The notes beneath the pieces were generated by a model that had not been told where the DNA came from, searched no databases, and saw nothing but the letters and a program-made list of their open reading frames with translations. A stretch of DNA of 64,000 nucleotides from Clostridia bacterium. Its GTDB lineage: Bacteria > Bacillota > Clostridia > Oscillospirales > CAG-272. The translations under genes and the position numbers were made by a program. Below are positions 38,025-48,117 of this stretch, in pieces (within the stretch, counting starts at the first letter, position 1; each line of letters starts with the position of its first letter). The stretch is taken from the NCBI GenBank assembly GCA_017532025.1, contig JAFXJX010000092.1:22642-86641 (forward strand). The letters are read 5' to 3'.

Positions 38025-38576
38025 ATGACAGATGAAAAAATCGTAGCCCTGTATTGGGCGCGCTCCGAAGACGCGATCAAAGAGACCGACAAAGCCTACG
38101 GTACATACTGCCGTTACATTGCCTACAATATCCTGCGCGAAAAAGAAGATGCCGACGAAACGGTAAACGACACCTACCTCAAAGCATGGCAAAGTATGCC
38201 GCCACAAAAACCCAATCCCTTAAAAGCCTTTCTCGGCAGAATCACAAGACAGCTCTCGATCAATCGGTTGGAAAAGAAAACTGCACAAAAGCGCGGCGGC
38301 GAGTTTGCTCTCTCGCTCGAAGAATTACAAAACGCCGTTCCCGATACCTCCCCCGACCTTGCCGACCAAGCGGCGCTTGCGGATGCGCTCACCCGTTTTC
38401 TTCACGCTTTGCCAATCATCCAAAGGCGTGTTTTTATCCGCAGGTATTGGTATCTTGAGTCGATCGGTGAGATTGCAAGTGCCTTTTCCATGAGTGAAAG
38501 CAAAGTAAAATCCATGCTCATGCGCTTACGACAAAAACTGAAACAACACTTGACAAAGGAGGGTTTTGGCAGATGA
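38025..38576 (+). CDS. ECF-type sigma-70 family RNA polymerase sigma factor
   Basis: The 183-aa protein has region 2 (DETVNDTYLKAW) and a region 4 HTH (ESIGEIASAFSMSESKVKSMLMRLRQKLK). It has a GGAGG RBS. Its stop overlaps the next ATG (ATGA). Confidence 0.88.
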   Translation: MTDEKIVALYWARSEDAIKETDKAYGTYCRYIAYNILREKEDADETVNDTYLKAWQSMPPQKPNPLKAFLGRITRQLSINRLEKKTAQKRGGEFALSLEELQNAVPDTSPDLADQAALADALTRFLHALPIIQRRVFIRRYWYLESIGEIASAFSMSESKVKSMLMRLRQKLKQHLTKEGFGR

Positions 38577-40012
38577 AAAGCACCGATATTCTTTACGCCC
38601 TGAACGATATCGACCCGCATCTTATCACCGATGCTCTCACAACCGCAAAGCCGAAAGCTGCTTTTCGCAGACTGTTTCCGATTGCCGCCTGTTTTGTTCT
38701 TATCTTGGCACTTCTTCTCTCCCTGTTTCTGTTTATGTGGAAAGATGATTCGCCCCAAGCGCCCACACCTCTTGATACCGTACCGCTCATCGAAGCGGGT
38801 GATACATTGGCTGACGAGGTCGTTCCACCCTACTATCCCACCACAGAGGGTGGCATGGCAAGCTATGCCTATCTCACCTTTGATCTCACCACCGTGATCG
38901 AAGCTGAGGTGATCGAAGTACTCCCCGAGTCCTACATCAGCCTCGACGGCGGCAGATATTATAAAATCGCTCGCCTGCGCGTGATCGACAACGTAAACGG
39001 CAAAAACCTGCCGTAGGAGATCTATCTTCGTTACGATAGCTCTGATCGCGGTGTTCAGCTTGAGGGATACGATTCGTTTCTGTTTTCGCTCGATCAGGTC
39101 GGCATCGAAAACTATCTGATGTTTAACGCAAATACCAAACAGGCAACTTACTTCCCCAATATGTTTATCGGCTCTTGGGCGATCAGCTACGGCTCGGCAA
39201 TTGCCTTTACCGACGGCAAAGTCGATCTTTCTTTCTTCGACAGGATCTTTGACTACTTTGATAATCCCGATCTTGACAGAATGCGCGAATGGGTATTCGA
39301 CGAGCCTGAAAAGTATAGCTTCCCGGTAGGTCGCGAAAGTACGATCGAAGAAGCCAAAGCAAGAATCGCATCCTTTCTCGAACAAGAAACGATCAAGCGC
39401 CCCTGCGATTATCTTACGGCAGAAGACGTCTTCTCATCCGATGAAGCAAAAGCCCTGCAAAGCTATCTTACACCAAGCAAAGGCAGTCTTTTTACGCAAA
39501 ATCTGTCTCGTTCCGCAAAAAGCGCCACAATCACCTACACTCGCGTGATCAACGGTTTTTCCACCAACGAAATCATCACAATTGACATGAACAGTCAAAC
39601 CATCACCGAAAAAGGCGAGAGATTTACCAAAGAAGACCTCTCTGCCCTTCCCGACCTTGTAACTGCCAAAAAGCAGATCACGCTTGATCCCGAACACCCG
39701 CCGCACGTCAAGCTCACGTTCAGTGTAAGCGGCAGTGCTCGTTTCCGAACCTTTGATTATACGCTTGTCTATCGCAAAATTAACGGCCAAGTTTACGGCA
39801 TCATTCGCGCCGAGTGGGTCTTTACCTACAGCAATGATGATCGCGAAGAACCGTTCTCACACGATTTCCGCGACGACGTTTATTTCCTTTACGACCAAGA
39901 CGGAAACGCTTGGCAACACAACCGCGACTCCTTGTCAAAAATCCTCGGAGAAGACTCTATCATCCGCCAAAATCGCTATTTCGACCCCGACAACGGCATC
40001 TGGTGGCACTAA
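38573..40012 (+). pseudogene. Anti-sigma-like single-pass membrane protein gene interrupted by one in-frame TAG (38573-39016 + 39017-40012 in the same frame)
   Basis: It is translationally coupled to the ECF sigma gene. The N-terminus (ILYALNDIDPHLITDA) and TM segment (LFPIAACFVLILALLLSLFLF) match the partner proteins seen after Clostridial ECF sigmas. The frame stays open straight through, apart from the TAG at 39014-39016. Both track ORFs (38573 and 39119) are in the same frame. Confidence 0.6.
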
Positions 40013-40056
40013 AATAATCCGAAGAATCAAACGATTCTTCGGATCAATCTGAAGGC

Positions 40057-40090
40057 AAAGTCACTTTTATGAAAGGTGGCTTTGTTTTTT
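40057..40090 (+). terminator. Intrinsic terminator after the anti-sigma-like gene
   Basis: AAAGTCAC-11 nt-GTGGCTTT is followed by GTTTTTT. It is preceded by a perfect 12-bp hairpin, ATCCGAAGAATC-AAAC-GATTCTTCGGAT (40017-40044), which has no U-tail. Confidence 0.7.
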
Positions 40091-40157
40091 GCGCTTAATT
40101 TTGTCAGTTGCAATCACTTTCGAACACCTCATCCGTCTTTGCCCTATTCTCAAGAAC

Positions 40158-40192
40158 AAAAAAAGATCCCGCCTGTTCGGCGGAATCTTTCC
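40158..40192 (-). terminator. Intrinsic terminator of rubrerythrin
   Basis: The minus strand reads AAAGAUUCCGCC-GAAC-AGGCGGGAUCUUU followed by UUUU. Confidence 0.8.
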
Positions 40193-40206
40193 TTTTATGT
40201 CGAAAA

Positions 40207-40740
40207 TCAATAATTTTCTTTTCTCACTTCGAAGTAGCTCTGAGGATGTGCGCATACGGGGCAGAGCTTGGGGGCAGCGGTGCCAACCACGATGTGACCG
40301 CAGTTGCGGCATTCCCACATAGCTTCGCCGGCTTTGGCGAACACTTCGTTCACTTCTACATTGTGGAGGAGCGCGCGGTATCTTTCTTCGTGGGTCTTTT
40401 CAATAGCGGCAACAGCTCTGAACTGATAAGCAATCTTCGCAAAGCCTTCTTCTTCAGCCACTCTTGCAAACTCATCGTACATATCGGTCCATTCGTAGTT
40501 TTCGCCTTCTGCAGCAGCAAGAAGGTTTTCAGCGGTGGTACCGATGCCGTTCAGATGCTTGAACCACAGTTTTGCGTGTTCCTTTTCGTTATCAGCAGTC
40601 TTCTGGAAGATTTCTGCGATCTGTTCGTAGCCTTCTTTTTTGGCAACGCTTGCAAAGTAAGTATATTTGTTTCTTGCCTGAGATTCGCCTGCAAATGCAG
40701 CAGCGAGATTCGCTTCGGTTCTTGAGCCTTTGAGTTCCAT
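40207..40740 (-). CDS. rbr: Rubrerythrin
   Basis: It has a ferritin-like diiron domain ([17 protein letters not shown]...EKEHAKLW...EGENYEW). It also has a C-terminal rubredoxin-like domain (CRNCGH...CPVCAHP). An alternative ATG lies at 40746. Confidence 0.92.
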
Positions 40741-41382: not shown

Positions 41383-44300
41383 TCATTCTTTTCGTGAACG
41401 CGCTTTCTTGATAACATAATAGCAAACCAAGAAAGCGATAACAGCAAGACACAAGATTGAACCAACAATAATCAAGACGATCACATACGTCGGCAAACCG
41501 TCCTCCGCACTGAGTTTAGGGATAGATTCTGTCTTGGTATGACCACATACCGTACACCTGTAGCTCATAATGCCCTCTTCATCTGTCGTTGCAGGCTTAA
41601 TCACAACACCCTCAGCATATGTATGCGGAATGTTAGGATCATCTTGGCAAGTGAGTTCCGCAATCGTATAGGTAAACCCGACAGTGGCACTAGGAGTCAT
41701 GCCCTCCTTGATTGCATAAGCAATGATTGTCACATCCTCCGTGATCGTAATGGGTCCGTCATACCGAATTCTTGCAGGATTGTTTTCATCGCACGGGCAG
41801 GAAAGATCGAGTGTATAATAAATGGTTGCGCCCTCTGTCTCTGTGCTGAGAGTAATCTGTGTTCCGGCAGGCACCTTACTACCGCTCTCTAGATTCGATG
41901 TAACCTTTTGGCAGGTATTGGCACGAGCCGCTGTCTGCGATATCACAGTTACATCTGCTGTAAGATCTGTACCTTCCACAGTAAGACGTATCTTCCCTGT
42001 CCCGGGAAGTTCACCTTGCAGAGTGATCAAGGCTCTTCCGTTTTTATCTGTTATGACAGACGCCGTTGAAACAGAGATAATATCGGGTGTCAATGAGGTT
42101 ACACAAACAGTTTTGTTTGCACCTGCTTCTTTGGGAAGCAGTTCAACAATGAAGTGTGCGCTATCGCCATAAACCACCGTTGCCGATTGCGGCACAACAA
42201 GGTCTTTCGGTAGGAGATAAACCTTCAACTCCTCTTCATAGCCGTTCGCCATAGCCGTTCCTGCATAATTGATAACACCTTGAATCGAAACTTTCACGCT
42301 ATCGCCCAACTTAGTCTCGGGGATAAATGTGAAAACACTCGCATATTCCACGTTAGGGTCGTCAAAAGATGTCTCCGCATTTATCGGAACAATCTTACCC
42401 TCAACCGTTTTGCCGTCAGCAGTAACCGTTACAGTGTGCGTGTTAATGCTATCAATCCGCATATATTGGCTAAATGCAATGCGCACGCTTTCGGTATAAG
42501 CATTCACCTGCTTCACGGTAGGCGCCATCTTGGAAACCAACGCAATATTCACTTCAGTTTGCGGAGGCGGTACAGGCAAGTAGCCGTTTTCATCGGCGTC
42601 GGGATCATTTCTCGAATCCGCATCATAATAACCGTCTTTCGAGAATTTCACAAGCCACTGTCCCATAGGAACATCCCATGCGTACCGTCCCTCTTTGTCG
42701 GTATAAAGCGGATTGACCTGATCCCATTCTTCGGCATTCCAGAAAACATCGCCCTTTTCGCTATCGTAATAGTAGGCTTCCACCTTTACACCCTCCAAAC
42801 GGTTGGAAGGCACAGCTTCGCACACATAACCGGAGGGGTCGATGAGGAGCGGTACATCGACACCGTCACCCGGCACAGCTTGGTTCCGAGGTTTGTTTTC
42901 AGGTTTACCATCATCGGGATCATCTTCCGGGTCCTCGGGGCATTTCGCCGCGGCATAGATTCTGTCTCTCAGATTATCCAGTTTTTCCATGTATGATTCA
43001 TGCGTTTTCTTGATGGTATAATCAAGCGTTTGGCTTCTCAGCATACCGGCGCCCAGCATTCCAAAGCTGCCCGCCGCCGCAACTGAGTGCAGGCATACGT
43101 ATGAGCTCACCACCGAGCTGGCATGCGGCAAAAGACCGAGCGCTCCGTTAAGCAGCGCGCTGTACATCTGATACGCTTCCACTTCCAGGTACAAACCCTC
43201 GCGCGCGGCATAATAATCCAGAACCAATGCCGTGTACTCTGCATAGAATGCCTGATATTGCGCCGTAGACAACGCATAGCTTCCGTCAGGGCATTTTCTT
43301 TCAAGTGCCAAAGGCAACAGCTCTGCCCATGAAGTAAAGATAATATCGTTGTTTTTAATCAAGTTGTTCAGTCTCGCCACGTCCAAACACAATACAAAGT
43401 TACCTGCCAGTCCCAACGAAGCAAAATCCATGAGCACTGCGGCGATACTGAGCATACCTTGCGCATATTGCATTCCTCCTTGTGGTGACAGATCATACGA
43501 CGCCACACTCGGTACGTTATTGGCATACCAGGTTTCATCTATCACCACCGAACAGCTAACATGCTGCTTGGCACTCGGAATCACAATCTCGTAGGTTTCG
43601 CTGAAGGGCGTGTTGCTCTTTTTCACGTAAACGACCGTGTTTTCACCGTCGATCATCTTGGTGTAGCCGTCTTTCAGCAGAACATCCTCGCTCTTTTGGG
43701 TATAGGTCAGCGTATTCTGAGCCATCCGCATGATCGGTGCGTTATCATTTTGCTTGTCAACCAAAACGTAGGTGATCGAGCTATCAGTTTCTTCGCTAAC
43801 AACGCCGATGTCTTCAGAAAAACCCACACCAAACTTTTCAAGTTCTTCCCCGGTCTGCAAAACGCCGTCATAGAAGTTTTGTTCGTTGATATAAGCTGTA
43901 TCGTTTTCACTTTCCGTAAACACAACGTTATAGCCGCAAGGGAGATCGGTTGAGTCTTTGTAGGTAATACTGCCTACCCAAATATCCGTTCCGGGTTTAT
44001 TCGTCATAGGAATATAAGTTTCTTTTCCGTTGGTTCCCGCAGTCACAACGTAAACGTCACTTAAACGCTTCGCTGAGCCGTTGGAAAAAGCAACGCGAAA
44101 AGAGTATGAACAATTACCCGTCCAAGTATACTGACTTGGATATTCGTTTTCCCGAATATTGAGCGTTATCGTTTTATCGCCGTTGATCACCTCAATGGTT
44201 TCCACGTAACAAAAGTCTTCCCGATAATGCAACCAAGACATTGCCGTTTCGTATTCAATGTCGTTATACTCGCTCTGAATATTGGCGTAGATAGCATAAT

Positions 44301-47300
44301 ACGAATTGTTTTTCGGCTCGTTCAGCCGAATGGTAGCCCGATAGTTTCCCGATGCATTTGCCGTCACCGTTGCCACAACAACGCCGTTGCTAAATACCGT
44401 AACCTTACTTTTGGCAGGCGCTTTTCCGTTTATTATCACGGAATCGGTGCCCGTCTTTTCAGGAATCAGAATTGTTGCATTTGCTATTTTCAGCGAGATC
44501 GTACCAACAGACTGCGTAATGTTGTCACCGCCCATAGAGAAAGCAAGAGACGCATTGACAACACACTCCGAGGAAGCAGTCAGAGGAACAACGTAAACGT
44601 ATAAAATGCCTTCGGATTCATTCGTATAAATCGTCAGCACCTGTTCATCCAGCGTATAGTTCACAGCCGTTTTGTTCCAATATACGCCTTGGGATAACAC
44701 GGTAAAGCCTTCGGGCAATTCAAGAATAACCGTTTCTCCCGATGCCTTGTAAGATGGCTTAAGTTTATATTCACAACGAAGCAGCAACGTTGTTCCCACC
44801 ACACAGCTTGTATGGTTAGCTGTAAAAAGGGTATTTTCTTTTTCGATGTACCAAAAACGTTCTTCTTCAAACACGGGTACTGTGAGATCAGTTATTTCGG
44901 TCACTTTTCCGTTTTGAACCGAAACCCTCCGCAAGACGTAGTCAACATCCTTTGCCATACCACAGGCGTTCAACTTGGAAAGATGGTCCATATTATCAAG
45001 AAGTGAGGAACGACCCATAAGAACAACGTCGTACTCACCTGCAGCAAGCGGCATTGACGCGTAAGTTTCACCAATATTCTCGTAAAGAACTCGATTCCCT
45101 TTGGAATCAAACACCATAACACAATTCTTGGCGTTGCCAAGGTTACGGTAGATGCTCAACCGCCCATTTTCCAAAAGCACAAGATTTGCCTCGGCAAGAC
45201 AATTTTCATCCAATTGCACAACAACCGTCTCGGCAGTCTTCACCCCATAGGTGTCAACCATTTGAATTTCCAATGTATCATACGGAGAAACCGTATCCGC
45301 CGCCGGAATCAGGTACGGATACTGAGCTGTAAAGTCAACAATTTCGTTTTGTGTGGTTTGGTTAAAAAGGCGGAAGGACAAGCCGTCAAAATTCAAAAGC
45401 TCAGACTGCAAAAATTGCTCATCATCCAAAGATGTGCCGATCACAACACCCGAAAGCATTATTCTGCACGTAGGCAGTGGCGTCATTTGTACATCGCCAA
45501 GCGATATATTTTTTGAAAGCTCCTCACCTGAGATAGACACAAGGCGATTGTAATACGTATCCGCGCGGATGCGGAGTTTGGTTGACAGACACAGCGCATC
45601 GAAAGCGAAATATCCGTTTTCATCCACAGATATCGAATAATCCTTTGAAAAACTCTCCGCATACTGTATCACCGTCATAGAAGCACCATTGATCTCGTTG
45701 CCCAGCAAATCGGTGACTCGTCCACTCACCGTAACCGTTTCAAGGCGCGAAAGTGTAAGCGAAACATCAGTAACTTCAGAGGGAACAGCATCCCCCGCGT
45801 GAGCCTGATACACAAACGCCAAATCCTCGCCCAACACAACCCGAAAACGTAAGTCATCCGGTCGTTTTGTCAAAACGATTGTATTGCCCTTACCCAAAAG
45901 AACAGTGCCGTCATACCAAAGCACGTCATAATCTGCCTCCGACACTTGACCGTCATCACCGAAAACCTTTGCCGAAAAAGAAATCTTCGAACCATCCTCA
46001 TGAGTAACGTATTCAAAAGAAACTCCGTGCGCTCTGGCATAGTCTTCGCCACAACTGCCCAAATGAACAAAGAGTACCAGTTCCGGATCAGACGTATTAA
46101 AAGCCGAATCGGCAATACTCGTTATATGAAGAGGGATACGTATAGACATGCCAACAGAACAAAACGCTCTTTCGGCAATACTCGTCACACTTTCATCATC
46201 CGGAATCACACTGTTTTTACACCCAAGGAGCAAAGTTTTGCTTGCTGTTTCAATCAAAGTATTTCCTGCCGAATGGTAAACTTCGTTTCCTTCTTCAACC
46301 GTAATACTGCTAAGACTTTCGCATGATCCAAAAGCTTCAAAGCCAATGCTTGTCACACTATTTGGAATGGTAATTGATGTAACACCCGTGCAGCCATAAA
46401 AGGCCCAGGCACCAATTTCTGTCACACCGCTTGGAATCGTAACAGAAACAAGGTCTTTGCATCCCTTAAACGCGCCGTTACCGATACTCGTTACACTGCC
46501 GTCAGTCGGAATCACACTGTTTTTACATCCAAGGATTAAGGTTTTGGTTGCTGTTTCGATGATCGTATTTGCTGCAGAATGGTAAACCTCGTTTCCTTCT
46601 TCAACCGAAATGCTGCCAAGATTTTCACAAAATTCAAAGACATTTTCGTTAATTCTCGTTACATTGGCAGGAATCGTGATAGATTCAAGAGCCGTGCAAT
46701 CTCTGAAAGCATCGTAACCGATCTGCTCCAATTGCTTGGGAAGCACAACCGAACGAAGCTTTTCACAATAAACAAAGGCATAGGTTCCAATAAAACCAAT
46801 ACCATCCGGAATCACAACCGATTCAAGACTTGTGCAACCATAAAAACAACTTCCCGGAATCGTAGTCAGCCCCTCAGAAAGCGTAACCGATTTAAGGCTC
46901 GTGCACCAATTAAACATCCTTTCGCCTATATAAGTCACGCTATTAGGAATCGTAATTGTCTCAAGACTTTCACAACCATCAAACATAGATTCGCCTATAT
47001 AGGTCACACCGTCGGCAATCGTAACCGAAGTCAGGTTAACGCAGTTTGTAAATACGTTGTCACCAATTTCGGTTACACCTTGGGGAATCGCAACAGAAAC
47101 AAGACCTGCCATTTCCTCAAAAGCGCCGTCGGCAATGCTTATTACGCTTCCGTCATCAGGAATCACGCTGTTATTACAGCCCTGGAGCAGTTCTCCATAC
47201 CAATTTATCAGCGTATTCCCTGCCGAATGGTAATCCTTGTTTTCTTTGGCGACTGAAATGCTGTTCAGCCCTGTACAACGGTTAAACGCCGATACAGCAA

Positions 47301-48117
47301 TACCCGTTACGCTTGCCGGAATCGTAATCGAAGTCAGGCTGATACAACCCTGAAACGCTCTGTAGCCAATACGCTCCAAGCCTTCGGGAAAGGTTATTTC
47401 CGTAAGCTGTGTGCAAGAGCCAAATGCATCGCTGTTTATTGTTTTCAATTGACTGTTTGGAGAAACAGTTACGCTGACAAGACTTTCACAATTCAAAAAA
47501 GTGCTGTCACTGATTTCGGTCAACGCATCCGGAATCACAAACGATTCAAGGCTTGTGCAACCTTGAAAGGCAGACGAATATATCTCCGCAAGCTCGCTGT
47601 TTTCGGAAATATCCACTGAAACCAAACTTTCACAGCCCTCAAACGCATTTCCTTGAATCAATGTCACACTCGCAGGGATTGAAATTTCTCTTAGCGATAC
47701 ACACTGAGAAAAAGCATTCCAACCGATTGTTGTCAATCCGTCGGGCAAAACGACAGACGCAAGATTCGAAAATTCGTAAAAAGCGGAACTTCCAATTTGC
47801 AATATACCGTCTGAAAGAACAAGGGAAACCACCTGTTCTTTGAGGTTGGGATCCAAATTCTCAAATTGAAATTCATCAATTTTGTCGGTATTGCTGATGG
47901 TCAGCTTACCTTCGCTATCAAGCACGGCATCAAAATCATAATCGTCAAACGTAAGCATACCGTTTTCTTCCGTCCCCTGATCGGGCGTGGTGGGAATCCA
48001 TATAACACCCCCGCCACCCTCAACAAAATCAAGTGCCATAATTGGCATTTGAAGCATTCCAAACAAAATGGAAAGCGCTAAAAACAGACTCATAAATCTT
48101 CGAGTAAAACCACGCAT
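41383..48117 (-). CDS. Giant (2244 aa) cell-surface protein: signal peptide, ~600 aa of BspA-type leucine-rich repeats, beta-sandwich/Ig-like and carboxypeptidase-regulatory-like domains, an internal hydrophobic helical module, Big_2-like and chitobiase/FN3-associated-like domains, C-terminal TM anchor
   Basis: ATG follows a GGAGG RBS. The signal peptide is FMSLFLALSILFGMLQMPIMA. LRR units of the IPxxVTxIGxxAFxxCxxLxSV type are repeated about 25 times. Near the C-terminus are the motif GATIYYTLD and the anchor YVIVLIIVGSILCLAVIAFLVCYYVIKKARSRKE. Confidence 0.9.
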   Translation of the reverse strand: MRGFTRRFMSLFLALSILFGMLQMPIMALDFVEGGGGVIWIPTTPDQGTEENGMLTFDDYDFDAVLDSEGKLTISNTDKIDEFQFENLDPNLKEQVVSLVLSDGILQIGSSAFYEFSNLASVVLPDGLTTIGWNAFSQCVSLREISIPASVTLIQGNAFEGCESLVSVDISENSELAEIYSSAFQGCTSLESFVIPDALTEISDSTFLNCESLVSVTVSPNSQLKTINSDAFGSCTQLTEITFPEGLERIGYRAFQGCISLTSITIPASVTGIAVSAFNRCTGLNSISVAKENKDYHSAGNTLINWYGELLQGCNNSVIPDDGSVISIADGAFEEMAGLVSVAIPQGVTEIGDNVFTNCVNLTSVTIADGVTYIGESMFDGCESLETITIPNSVTYIGERMFNWCTSLKSVTLSEGLTTIPGSCFYGCTSLESVVIPDGIGFIGTYAFVYCEKLRSVVLPKQLEQIGYDAFRDCTALESITIPANVTRINENVFEFCENLGSISVEEGNEVYHSAANTIIETATKTLILGCKNSVIPTDGSVTSIGNGAFKGCKDLVSVTIPSGVTEIGAWAFYGCTGVTSITIPNSVTSIGFEAFGSCESLSSITVEEGNEVYHSAGNTLIETASKTLLLGCKNSVIPDDESVTSIAERAFCSVGMSIRIPLHITSIADSAFNTSDPELVLFVHLGSCGEDYARAHGVSFEYVTHEDGSKISFSAKVFGDDGQVSEADYDVLWYDGTVLLGKGNTIVLTKRPDDLRFRVVLGEDLAFVYQAHAGDAVPSEVTDVSLTLSRLETVTVSGRVTDLLGNEINGASMTVIQYAESFSKDYSISVDENGYFAFDALCLSTKLRIRADTYYNRLVSISGEELSKNISLGDVQMTPLPTCRIMLSGVVIGTSLDDEQFLQSELLNFDGLSFRLFNQTTQNEIVDFTAQYPYLIPAADTVSPYDTLEIQMVDTYGVKTAETVVVQLDENCLAEANLVLLENGRLSIYRNLGNAKNCVMVFDSKGNRVLYENIGETYASMPLAAGEYDVVLMGRSSLLDNMDHLSKLNACGMAKDVDYVLRRVSVQNGKVTEITDLTVPVFEEERFWYIEKENTLFTANHTSCVVGTTLLLRCEYKLKPSYKASGETVILELPEGFTVLSQGVYWNKTAVNYTLDEQVLTIYTNESEGILYVYVVPLTASSECVVNASLAFSMGGDNITQSVGTISLKIANATILIPEKTGTDSVIINGKAPAKSKVTVFSNGVVVATVTANASGNYRATIRLNEPKNNSYYAIYANIQSEYNDIEYETAMSWLHYREDFCYVETIEVINGDKTITLNIRENEYPSQYTWTGNCSYSFRVAFSNGSAKRLSDVYVVTAGTNGKETYIPMTNKPGTDIWVGSITYKDSTDLPCGYNVVFTESENDTAYINEQNFYDGVLQTGEELEKFGVGFSEDIGVVSEETDSSITYVLVDKQNDNAPIMRMAQNTLTYTQKSEDVLLKDGYTKMIDGENTVVYVKKSNTPFSETYEIVIPSAKQHVSCSVVIDETWYANNVPSVASYDLSPQGGMQYAQGMLSIAAVLMDFASLGLAGNFVLCLDVARLNNLIKNNDIIFTSWAELLPLALERKCPDGSYALSTAQYQAFYAEYTALVLDYYAAREGLYLEVEAYQMYSALLNGALGLLPHASSVVSSYVCLHSVAAAGSFGMLGAGMLRSQTLDYTIKKTHESYMEKLDNLRDRIYAAAKCPEDPEDDPDDGKPENKPRNQAVPGDGVDVPLLIDPSGYVCEAVPSNRLEGVKVEAYYYDSEKGDVFWNAEEWDQVNPLYTDKEGRYAWDVPMGQWLVKFSKDGYYDADSRNDPDADENGYLPVPPPQTEVNIALVSKMAPTVKQVNAYTESVRIAFSQYMRIDSINTHTVTVTADGKTVEGKIVPINAETSFDDPNVEYASVFTFIPETKLGDSVKVSIQGVINYAGTAMANGYEEELKVYLLPKDLVVPQSATVVYGDSAHFIVELLPKEAGANKTVCVTSLTPDIISVSTASVITDKNGRALITLQGELPGTGKIRLTVEGTDLTADVTVISQTAARANTCQKVTSNLESGSKVPAGTQITLSTETEGATIYYTLDLSCPCDENNPARIRYDGPITITEDVTIIAYAIKEGMTPSATVGFTYTIAELTCQDDPNIPHTYAEGVVIKPATTDEEGIMSYRCTVCGHTKTESIPKLSAEDGLPTYVIVLIIVGSILCLAVIAFLVCYYVIKKARSRKE
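46201..46632. repeat. Intragenic ~306-nt direct duplication within the LRR region
   Basis: CGGAATCACACTGTTTTTACA...GGTAAAC.TCGTTTCCTTCTTCAACCG occurs at 46201 and again at 46507, offset by 306 nt (102 aa). The copies encode SI(T/S)VEEGNEVYHSA(G/A)NT(L/I)IETA(S/T)KTL(L/I)LGCKNSVIP. A third, diverged copy lies upstream in the protein. Confidence 0.85.

What the first reader, a model, noticed from the sequence alone, without database searches (positions are those of the whole stretch)
42950..43520. Hydrophobic alpha-helical module embedded in the middle of the otherwise beta-rich giant protein
Residues ~1533-1723 switch abruptly from beta-type sequence to long hydrophobic or amphipathic helices. 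Examples are GMLSIAAVLMDFASLGLAGNFVLCLDVARL, YQAFYAEYTALVLDYYAAREGLYLEVEAYQMYSALLNGALGLL and VVSSYVCLHSVAAAGSFGMLGAGML. A highly acidic Pro-rich linker (CPEDPEDDPDDGKPENKP) and the IDPSGYV domain follow. A membrane-active or helical-bundle insert in a secreted adhesin-like protein is unexpected. It could be a pore-forming or membrane-insertion unit, a cleavage/assembly module or a lipid-binding domain. I do not recognise the family.
Basis: partly seen in the sequence, partly recalled or inferred. Interest (0 to 1): 0.55.

Follow-up and report, generated by a model that had tools for sequence, protein, structure and literature searches.

The report
Variable helical cassette in surface protein
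The flagged stretch is a real, roughly 190-residue helical domain with two conserved cysteines, sitting at a fixed spot in a 2244-residue bacterial surface protein; it belongs to an unnamed, highly variable family of such inserts in giant surface proteins of gut bacteria, and in this protein it looks like a soluble bundle rather than a membrane-spanning or pore-forming unit.

Summary
Residues 1533-1726 of the 2244-aa ORF (41383..48117, minus strand) switch to Ala/Leu/Met-rich sequence (z=8.3 against shuffles). AlphaFold2 models them as helices, but with low to moderate confidence. An acidic/Pro linker and an "IDPSGYV" transthyretin-like domain follow.

The pore or membrane-insertion reading is not supported for this protein. 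The most apolar 19-residue windows score about +4 kcal/mol on a simplified Hessa scale, against -5.1 for the protein's own C-terminal anchor.

The module has no Pfam, NCBIfam, PDB-sequence or Foldseek match. In 1.84 billion representative proteins it has one real relative, a 59%-identical orthologue. Relatives found through the downstream domain place it in a family of at least 17 divergent modules. In that family the only invariant columns are two cysteines, C1609 and C1726, probably a disulfide staple.

The same layout (helical insert, Cys, low-complexity linker, DPSG domain) recurs in more than 565 giant secreted proteins of Clostridia and Bacteroidales. In 18 of 26 near-identical scaffold pairs the insert region is only 17-34% identical.

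My best reading is a soluble, stapled, variable surface-exposed helical bundle, probably an interaction or antigenic module. Its function is inferred, not shown.

The parts
41383..48117 (-). Host gene: 2244-aa secreted surface protein. It has an N-terminal signal peptide, BspA-type LRR_5 repeats, CarboxypepD_reg/Ig-like domains, the insert, a DPSG transthyretin-like domain, Big and CHB_HEX_C domains, a Cys-rich segment and a C-terminal TM anchor (2212-2230).
43522..43911 (-). Residues 1403-1532: the mixed, poorly modelled first half of the optional insert. It is absent together with the helical module in homologues P0008 and P0002.
   Evidence: P0008 and P0002 join 1400 to 1758 with about 26 residues; pLDDT below 50
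42940..43521 (-). Residues 1533-1726: the two-Cys helical module that is the subject of the finding.
   Evidence: helices; family; composition
43384..43458 (-). Residues 1554-1578: first apolar stretch, within helix 1. It contains D1564 and N1573. KD19 is 1.80 and the simplified dG is +3.95.
43291..43293 (-). Cys1609 (C1), in the motif LALERKCPDGSYALS. This column is invariant in the 17-sequence family alignment.
43135..43266 (-). Residues 1618-1661: long Tyr/Ala/Glu-rich helix 3.
43039..43134 (-). Residues 1662-1693: second apolar, Gly/Ala/Ser-rich stretch (the tip and the start of helix 4). It carries a small-xxx-small zipper, SVAAAGSFGMLGA. pLDDT is below 50 and the simplified dG is +4.5.
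42949..43098 (-). Residues 1674-1723: long helix 4. Its C-terminal half is amphipathic and carries the family motif Y..L...I..L...I.
42940..42942 (-). Cys1726 (C2), directly after helix 4. This column is invariant in the family alignment.
42847..42939 (-). Residues 1727-1757: acidic/Pro-rich low-complexity linker. The divergence breakpoint with the orthologue lies at its end.
42448..42846 (-). Residues 1758-1890: highly conserved DPSGYV domain with a transthyretin/CarboxypepD_reg-like beta sandwich. It is the anchor point of the whole architecture.

Best explanation
Residues 1533-1726 form a soluble, extracellular bundle of three long helices (about 45-50 residues each) and two short ones. It is probably stapled at one end by a disulfide between the two family-invariant cysteines, C1609 and C1726.

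The module is one member ('cluster I') of an undescribed set of optional, highly variable helical cassettes. These cassettes occupy one fixed position in a widespread family of giant secreted surface proteins of gut Clostridia and Bacteroidales. That position is directly upstream of a low-complexity linker and a strongly conserved transthyretin-like 'DPSG' domain.

The Gly/Ala/Ser-rich apolar stretches are helix-packing or tip segments of the bundle, not transmembrane helices.

Inferred function: an exposed variable interaction or antigenic module displayed on a conserved stalk and anchor. The linker/DPSG boundary acts as a recombination junction.

Shown: the helical character, the family membership, the invariant Cys pair, the lack of TM-grade hydrophobicity, the cassette variability and the recombination breakpoint. 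Inferred: the disulfide, the burial of the apolar segments, and the binding or antigenic role.
For: Structure
- Helices are predicted in two AF2 runs.
- By helix order, C1609 (after helix 2) and C1726 (after helix 4) fall at the same end of an antiparallel bundle. This is an inference from topology.
- Helix 4 has a small-xxx-small zipper.

Not a TM segment
- KD19 is at most 1.80 and the simplified Hessa sum is +3.95 to +4.5, against -5.1 for the protein's own anchor.
- Eisenberg <H> is 0.38-0.56, against 0.97 for the anchor.

Family
- jackhmmer over 85 regions upstream of DPSG domains converges on 16 sequences.
- They share the motifs ..C.DG..(R/K)LS..D and Y..L...I..L...I..YK.C.
- In the MAFFT alignment A4 the only invariant columns are the two Cys.
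- Cysteines are co-present or co-absent. 60 of 64 sequences with C2 have at least 2 Cys in the last 200 aa, mean 3.66. Sequences lacking C2 have a mean of 0.75.

Architecture and secretion
- More than 565 GTDB loci carry the DPSG domain.
- 63 of 69 analysable ORFs have a Cys plus linker upstream of it.
- All carry a signal peptide and a surface-anchoring C-terminus: SLH, dockerin, a TM anchor, or a T9SS CTD.
- T9SS cargo must be released soluble into the periplasm (PMC5445135). So even the hydrophobic cassettes cannot be permanent TM anchors.

Variability
- In 18 of 26 pairs with at least 80% identical DPSG domains, region -400..-40 is only 17-34% identical. Region -900..-400 is 33-67% and the downstream region is 51-88% identical.
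- L057 (cluster I) and L063, L067, L071, L072 and L079 (cluster II) carry different cassette types on scaffolds whose DPSG domains are 91-94% identical.
- The insert is optional: P0008 and P0002 lack it.

Constraint and mosaicism against orthologue L081
- The module has dN/dS of about 0.24, like the neighbouring beta domains.
- dS drops from 1.4-2.3 upstream of residue 1757 to 0.26-0.32 downstream.
Against: - Model confidence is low to moderate (mean pLDDT 64, pTM 0.51), and the apolar tip is below 50.
- No ligand or binding function is demonstrated.
- Against its only close relative, the module is no more variable than the upstream beta domains. Hypervariability is therefore shown for the family, not for this lineage.
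- The two apolar stretches are the least conserved 50-residue blocks from 1341 to the linker (46% and 50%). That is unusual for a tightly packed core.
- Whether strict anaerobes form extracellular disulfides is uncertain (own knowledge).
- Homology between cluster I and the hydrophobic cluster II is not demonstrable (hhalign probability 0.5%).
- The jackhmmer E-values refer to a database of only 85 sequences.
Confidence: 0.5

Rival explanations
1. Latent membrane-active module. The apolar hairpin is shielded inside or at the tip of the helical bundle, as in colicin pore domains, Bcl-2 proteins or ClyA/Ahl-type alpha pore-forming toxins. After a trigger it inserts into a target (host or competitor) membrane.
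For: - Long antiparallel helices carry apolar Gly/Ala/Ser-rich stretches.
- The top, but non-significant, Foldseek hits are the ClyA pore protomer and AhlC.
- Sister cassettes (cluster II) have strongly hydrophobic hairpins of about 40 residues (KD up to 2.46, simplified dG down to -0.2) with a conserved P.TGG(S/T)S turn. They occur even in T9SS cargo, which must stay soluble.
- The cassettes are polymorphic, like toxin modules.
Against: - In this protein the best windows score +4 kcal/mol and contain Asp, Asn, His and Ser.
- Most cluster I relatives are not hydrophobic (KD 1.1-1.4).
- Foldseek gives E=0.42 and TM 0.22, which is noise.
- There is no match to any HlyE, HBL or colicin model in Pfam or PDB.
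- No immunity-like or partner gene is conserved nearby.
- The protein is tethered by its own TM anchor.
Confidence: 0.12
2. Purely architectural element: a rigid coiled-coil spacer or hinge, or an oligomerisation bundle, that separates the N-terminal LRR/Ig array from the C-terminal stalk. It has no ligand of its own.
For: - Three helices of about 45-50 residues would make a 6-7 nm rod.
- A flexible low-complexity linker follows it.
- It is under purifying selection like the structural beta domains.
- Helical bundles act as spacers in other giant adhesins (own knowledge: Ebh).
Against: - A mere spacer would not be expected to be replaced by unrelated cassettes on near-identical scaffolds.
- Nor would it keep family-specific motifs and an invariant Cys pair.
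- Some homologues do without it entirely.
Confidence: 0.2
3. True transmembrane hairpin. The stretches 1554-1578 and 1666-1693 span the cytoplasmic membrane, leaving both large flanks outside and about 90 residues in the cytoplasm.
For: - There are two apolar stretches, and an even number of spans would keep both flanks extracellular.
- Some family members have TM-grade hairpins.
Against: - The simplified dG is +4 kcal/mol for both stretches, against -5.1 for the real anchor.
- There are charged or polar residues in mid-stretch.
- Conserved cysteines flank the segment that would then lie in the reducing cytoplasm (C1609) and outside (C1726).
- Bacteroidales relatives with the same layout are T9SS cargo that must leave the inner membrane.
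Confidence: 0.04
4. Processing or assembly module. The helical domain works with the invariant Asp-Pro at the start of the DPSG domain (D1760-P1761), for example by autocatalytic or acid-labile cleavage that releases or re-links the N-terminal 190 kDa part.
For: - D, P, S, G and Y are invariant across phyla at the domain start.
- The junction is a recombination boundary.
- Asp-Pro self-cleavage is known in FrpC-type self-processing modules and in GDPH motifs (own knowledge).
Against: - Homologues without any helical insert keep the DPSG motif, so the motif does not depend on the module.
- The DPSG domain has no similarity to known self-processing modules.
- There is no evidence of cleavage.
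Confidence: 0.08

Closest known systems
Hypervariable alpha-helical domains of Gram-positive surface proteins (pneumococcal PspA/PspC, streptococcal M proteins; own knowledge)
   Same: A helical, sequence-variable exposed domain is followed by a Pro-rich or charged low-complexity linker and a conserved cell-anchoring part. Alleles are mosaic and recombining.
   Different: Here the module is internal, between beta-sandwich arrays, rather than N-terminal. It has an invariant Cys pair and apolar small-residue stretches. It has no sequence similarity to those proteins, and it also occurs in Gram-negative T9SS cargo.
ClyA / Hbl / AhlC-type alpha-helical pore-forming toxins
   Same: Long antiparallel helices with an apolar hairpin at one end. 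These are the nominal top Foldseek hits.
   Different: The hits are not significant (E=0.42-2.6, TM 0.14-0.24), and no Pfam match exists. Hydrophobicity in this protein is too low. The module is embedded in an anchored 2244-aa protein rather than being a free toxin of about 300-400 aa.
Colicin / Bcl-2 / diphtheria T-domain 'buried hydrophobic hairpin' bundles
   Same: The concept of apolar helices shielded by amphipathic ones in a soluble state.
   Different: The colicin Ib match is only noise-level (E=0.31). There are too few helices for that fold, and nothing here indicates a trigger or a translocation function.
Helical-bundle repeats in giant adhesins (Ebh FIVAR-GA, protein A/G modules; own knowledge)
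   Same: Helical bundles embedded in very large Gram-positive surface proteins. They act as binding units or spacers.
   Different: Those are short bundles of about 50-130 aa in tandem arrays. This is a single-copy module of about 190 aa with 45-50-residue helices and a Cys pair.
Thioester domain (TED) of alpha-2-macroglobulin-like proteins
   Same: A helical domain inserted into a chain of beta-sandwich domains, including CarboxypepD_reg/MG-like ones.
   Different: There is no CxEQ thioester motif anywhere in the protein. The module has about 190 aa, not about 300. There is no PDB or Pfam match.

Membership tests
Cluster I two-Cys helical cassette (defined here; unnamed) | Sequence similarity to other members by iterative profile search | tested here: met
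   jackhmmer from residues 1533-1745 converges on 16 sequences with 15.6-335 bits (11 of them above 50), but the database holds only 85 sequences. The first-pass phmmer hit to L005 scores only 24.8 bits.
Cluster I two-Cys helical cassette (defined here; unnamed) | C1 motif (..a+C.DG..+LS..D) and C2 motif (Y..L...I..L...I..YK.C) with both Cys present | tested here: met
   The giant has LALERKC1609PDGSYALSTAQ and YMEKLDNLRDRIYAAAKC1726. The two Cys are the only invariant columns of A4.
Cluster I two-Cys helical cassette (defined here; unnamed) | Position directly upstream of a low-complexity linker and the DPSG transthyretin-like domain in a secreted giant protein | tested here: met
Cluster I two-Cys helical cassette (defined here; unnamed) | C1-C2 disulfide | not testable with these tools
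Only the helix order supports proximity.
Transmembrane helical hairpin | Two segments of about 19-23 residues with membrane-insertion free energy near or below 0 kcal/mol | tested here: not met
   The simplified Hessa sum is +3.95 and +4.53, against -5.09 for the C-terminal anchor and +0.95 for the signal peptide. Position-dependent predictors were not available.
ClyA/HBL/Ahl alpha-pore-forming toxins | Match to HlyE or Bacillus_HBL-type profiles, or a significant structural match | tested here: not met
   No Pfam or NCBIfam hit. The best Foldseek hit is 6mrt_A with E=0.42 and TMq 0.22.
Any Pfam-A / NCBIfam family | Profile hit above or near the curated threshold on residues 1473-1783 or on any cluster I member | tested here: not met
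   Zero families for the segment. No family matched more than 1 of 17 members, with best E=0.044.
Alpha-2-macroglobulin thioester domain | CxEQ thioester motif in a helical insert | tested here: not met
   No C.EQ anywhere in the 2244 aa.
Transthyretin / CarboxypepD_reg-like fold (for the downstream DPSG domain) | Structural similarity to the prealbumin-like beta sandwich | tested here: inconclusive
   Foldseek 5aq0_B gives E=4.7e-3, TMt 0.71 and probability 1.00, from a model with pLDDT of about 63-87 in that region. Pfam CarboxypepD_reg matches only weakly, in relative L037 (E=0.003).

The most novel reading that the evidence does not exclude
The cassettes at this position may be a polymorphic set of latent membrane-active helical hairpins, alpha-pore-former-like. 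They would be displayed on a conserved surface scaffold shared by Clostridia and Bacteroidales and exchanged by recombination at the linker/DPSG junction. They could be released or armed by cleavage at the invariant Asp-Pro of the DPSG motif. That would amount to a contact-dependent membrane-attack or fusion device of gut commensals. The window's module would then be a weakly hydrophobic member of that set.
Probability: 0.07. Interest if true: 0.8.

Novelty: new variant of a known kind. Interest (0 to 1): 0.42.

Why it matters
Giant BspA-LRR-type surface proteins are abundant in gut Clostridia and Bacteroidales, but their central regions are unannotated. This work identifies three things:
- a fixed insertion site that carries interchangeable helical cassettes;
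- an invariant Cys pair within the family this module belongs to;
- an exceptionally conserved, cross-phylum transthyretin-like 'DPSG' domain that also marks a recombination junction.

If the cassettes are interaction or antigenic modules, they would be a handle for strain typing and for finding host, phage or IgA targets of gut commensals. The strongly hydrophobic cassette types in soluble T9SS cargo raise a concrete, testable biophysical question. For this particular protein the practical result is more modest: an unnamed soluble helical domain, not a pore former.

Tried and rejected
- **Direct homology of the module.** The word-index search found nothing. Exhaustive phmmer over 1.84 billion representatives found only the orthologue P0014 and a spurious repeat protein, P0015, which matched on low-complexity 'TASGGLG' repeats.
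- **PDB sequence searches.** Searches with the single sequence and with the family profile gave only noise.
- **Foldseek.** The module-only model had no hit with E<0.2 against PDB or BFVD. The 488-residue model hit only transthyretin-like folds, through the downstream domain.
- **Uniting cluster I and cluster II.** jackhmmer cross-hits occurred, but hhalign without the linkers gave probability 0.5%. I therefore treat the two as architecturally analogous, with homology not shown.
- **Chou-Fasman helix-minus-strand windowing.** It did not single out the segment and was replaced by a composition statistic.
- **Phage origin.** There is no DPSG domain in IMG/VR.
- **Conserved partner, immunity or secretion genes.** Neighbours are only other LRR_5 or Flg_new surface proteins. 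Window neighbours are housekeeping genes.
- **Alpha-2-macroglobulin TED idea.** There is no CxEQ motif, and the core 701-1402 has no PDB relative.
- **Antisense ORFs** 42280-42996 and 43561-43953 have no family match and are by-products of the conserved sense frame.
- **Source genome.** Neither the giant protein nor the neighbouring GlnIII is on record by exact look-up.
Full report
**What is at the coordinates**

The finding lies inside one ORF, 41383..48117 on the minus strand, which encodes 2244 aa. Residue r starts at 48117-3(r-1), so 42950-43520 corresponds to residues about 1533-1723.

The protein has the following parts:
- a signal peptide;
- six BspA-type LRR_5 stretches;
- CarboxypepD_reg, Big_6 and Big_1 domains;
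- a CHB_HEX_C/Fn3_assoc domain;
- a C-terminal hydrophobic anchor at 2212-2230, followed by KKARSRKE.

The neighbouring genes are housekeeping: glutamine synthetase III, an ECF sigma factor, CoA-enzyme activase (BcrAD_BadFG/DUF2229)-type proteins and DegV. This is a chromosomal surface-protein gene, probably from a Clostridia-type gut bacterium. The exact genome is not in the look-up collection. Antisense ORFs under the region have no family match.

**Is the switch real?**

Yes. Ala, Leu and Met are doubled and Thr, Val and Ile are halved relative to the rest of the protein. The best 190-aa window for (A+L+M) minus (T+V+I) is 1539-1728, with z=8.3; 0 of 5000 shuffles reach it. That statistic was chosen post hoc, and a Chou-Fasman score was uninformative.

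Two AlphaFold2 runs predict helices at 1545-1563, 1568-1589, 1597-1608, 1618-1661 and 1674-1723. The only strands predicted lie in the flanks; those upstream have pLDDT below 50. Confidence is moderate in the helices (pLDDT 61-90) and low at the apolar tip 1661-1687.

**Is it a membrane segment?**

Probably not, on three measures.
- KD19 peaks at 1.80 (1560-1578). The real anchor scores 3.27 and the signal peptide 2.13.
- A simplified sum of the Hessa biological scale gives +3.95 and +4.53 kcal/mol for the two apolar stretches. The anchor gives -5.09 and the signal peptide +0.95.
- Eisenberg mean hydrophobicity is 0.38-0.56, against 0.97 for the anchor.

The stretches contain Asp, Asn, His and many Ser. 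One carries a small-xxx-small zipper, S1678-A1682-G1686-A1690, which is typical of tight helix packing.

**Homology**

The module alone has no match in Pfam, NCBIfam or PDB sequences. The word-index protein search found nothing.

Exhaustive phmmer over 1.84 billion cluster representatives returned one true hit, P0014. It is 59% identical in the module and is a partial 1797-aa orthologue. The other hit, P0015, is a repeat protein and an artefact.

A wider query (residues 1340-1923) returned 13 proteins. All are anchored on the domain that begins at IDPSGYV.

**A recurrent plan upstream of the DPSG domain**

Reading what lies upstream of that domain in those hits, and in the fragments and the 80 genomic loci, revealed a recurrent plan:
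- a helical region;
- often a Gly/Ala/Ser-rich apolar hairpin;
- an amphipathic helix ending in Cys;
- an acidic, Pro-rich or Gly-rich linker;
- then xIDPSGYVYE.

63 of 69 analysable ORFs have the Cys and linker. Six instead have a hydrophobic hairpin joined directly through F.IRW.IDPSG.

Hydrophobicity varies widely. KD19 is at least 1.6 in 25 of 69 ORFs. The simplified dG is below 1.5 in 9 and above 6 in 34.

**The family this module belongs to**

jackhmmer from the module, run against 85 upstream regions, converged on 16 sequences, which I call cluster I. Members come from Oscillospiraceae, Eubacterium, Pseudoflavonifractor and Oribacterium, plus one Porphyromonadaceae locus.

They share the motif L..L.a(R/K)C.DG..(R/K)LS..D around the first Cys. 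They share Y..L...I..L...I..YK.C before the linker.

In a MAFFT alignment of 17 members the only invariant columns are the two cysteines, C1609 and C1726 in the giant.

Cysteines are co-present or co-absent across the wider set. By helix order, both Cys fall at the same end of an antiparallel bundle. A disulfide staple is therefore the simplest reading.

Most cluster I relatives are not hydrophobic (KD 1.1-1.4). The giant and P0014 are a short variant in which the tip is replaced by Gly/Ala/Ser-rich sequence.

The family profile has no PDB-sequence match (best E=0.11) and no recurrent Pfam match. The module model has no significant Foldseek match. The best PDB hit is the ClyA protomer at E=0.42 and TM 0.22. 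The best BFVD hit has E=0.21.

A second group, cluster II, has IPDPC, a helix, a strongly hydrophobic hairpin with a P.TGG(S/T)S turn, another helix and then L(K/D)C. hhalign between the two clusters is not significant. I treat them as analogous occupants of one site.

**The scaffold**

The DPSG domain has 36 invariant positions among 10 divergent sequences. It models as a transthyretin/CarboxypepD_reg-like sandwich. It is present in at least 565 loci of GTDB species genomes from Clostridia, Bacteroidales and Neobacillus. It is absent from IMG/VR.

The host proteins are 1000-3600 aa, with signal peptides and surface-anchoring C-termini. In Firmicutes these are SLH domains, dockerins or TM anchors. 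In Bacteroidales they are T9SS type A sorting domains; 6 of 6 tested score above the TIGR04183 cut-off.

T9SS cargo is released by Sec into the periplasm and folds there before crossing the outer membrane (PMC5445135). So even the strongly hydrophobic cassettes in L030, L054, L064 and L079 cannot be permanent inner-membrane hairpins. They must be shielded in a soluble fold.

Neighbouring genes are other LRR_5 or Flg_new surface proteins. There is no secretion or immunity system.

**Optional and variable**

P0008 and P0002 align to residues up to about 1400 and again from 1758, with only about 26 residues in between. L040, L050 and L052 also lack a helical region. The whole 1403-1757 segment is therefore an optional insert.

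Among 26 protein pairs whose DPSG domains are at least 80% identical, 18 have only 17-34% identity in region -400..-40. That is the background level. In the same pairs, region -900..-400 is 33-67% identical and the 300 residues downstream are 51-88% identical.

L057 carries a cluster I cassette, while L063, L067, L071, L072 and L079 carry cluster II cassettes. Their DPSG domains are 91-94% identical. The site thus holds exchangeable cassettes.

**The window's gene against its orthologue**

The comparison uses the orthologue DNA in L081. Everything upstream of residue 1757 has saturated synonymous divergence (dS 1.4-2.3) and 46-74% protein identity. Everything from the DPSG domain onward has dS 0.26-0.32 and 80-100% identity. 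That is a sharp recombination breakpoint at the linker/DPSG junction.

The module's dN/dS of about 0.24 equals that of the neighbouring beta domains. It is a constrained, folded domain, but in this pair it shows no special diversification.

**Interpretation**

The best-supported reading, at about 0.5, is a soluble, Cys-stapled helical bundle. It is one of a family of variable cassettes displayed at a fixed site on a conserved surface scaffold. It most likely serves as an exposed interaction or antigenic module.

In design it resembles the variable helical domain plus Pro-rich linker plus anchor of PspA, PspC and M proteins (own knowledge). It is not related to them in sequence.

The rivals, with my estimates:
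- a purely architectural spacer or oligomerisation rod, 0.2;
- a latent membrane-active hairpin, 0.12, more plausible for cluster II;
- a processing module acting with the invariant Asp-Pro, 0.08;
- a true TM hairpin, 0.04.

**Novelty and score**

The domain family and the cassette-site architecture are not described in Pfam, NCBIfam or PDB. Three library searches found no description of them. The general kind, a variable helical surface domain, is known. I therefore rate it a new variant of a known kind, with interest 0.42.

Noticed in passing
window 42448-42846 (residues 1758-1890); alignment A1; loci L001-L080: The 'DPSGYVYEAVPSNRL...WDAxEWDQVNP...GRYAWDVPEGxWQVK...LPVPPPQTEVN' domain is extraordinarily conserved. 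It is about 45-68% identical between Clostridia, Bacteroidales and Neobacillus, with 36 invariant positions including D-P-S-G-Y at its first strand. No Pfam model reaches its threshold. At least 565 genomic loci carry it. Its own function, and the reason for the invariant Asp-Pro, are unknown.
   Followed up: partly
window about 42847-42939 (linker) against L081: There is a sharp mosaic breakpoint between the window gene and its metagenomic orthologue. dS is 1.4-2.3 upstream of residue 1757 and 0.26-0.32 downstream. The conserved C-terminal stalk and anchor appear to be shared by recent recombination, while the N-terminal 1750 residues are old alleles.
   Followed up: yes
L006, L018, L030, L054, L067, L072, L079, P0001, P0035 (about 60-130 aa upstream of DPSG): Cluster II cassettes consist of IPDPC, a helix, a hydrophobic hairpin of about 40 residues with a conserved P.TGG(S/T)S turn (KD19 up to about 2.4; simplified dG about 0.4-3.7 kcal/mol), another helix and a Cys. 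They occur even in Bacteroidales proteins with T9SS sorting domains, which must stay soluble in the periplasm.
   Followed up: partly
L027, L028, L037, L041, L043, P0004, P0005, P0012, P0043: A third, Cys-free arrangement ('type B'). A helix with an ..N(S/L)xMSxxEK.. motif and a hydrophobic hairpin are joined directly to the DPSG domain through F.(I/L)(R/K)W.IDPSG, with no linker.
   Followed up: no
window 41383-41560 (residues about 2185-2244); also L012, L058, L073 C-termini: A CxxC-containing segment (RCTVCGHTKTE) precedes the TM anchor in the giant. Relatives L012, L058 and L073 instead end in an odd Phe-rich amphipathic tail (GFFxxIIxFFKNLFG). In L012 and L058 this tail sits after or among Cys-rich motifs (CxxC in L012), possibly an alternative membrane or wall anchor.
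   Followed up: no
window 38025-40725 (+ strand): An ECF sigma factor gene (38025-38576) is followed by three ORFs with no Pfam hits (38573-39016, 39119-40012, 40108-40725). They are convergent with the 3' end of the giant gene. They may form an anti-sigma or regulatory unit; any link to the surface protein is unknown.
   Followed up: no
window 43912-46017 (residues 701-1402): About 700 residues of beta-rich core are conserved in relatives (P0008, P0013). They have only weak Pfam coverage (CarboxypepD_reg, Big_6) and no PDB sequence relative. This is a large unannotated part of a widespread protein family.
   Followed up: partly
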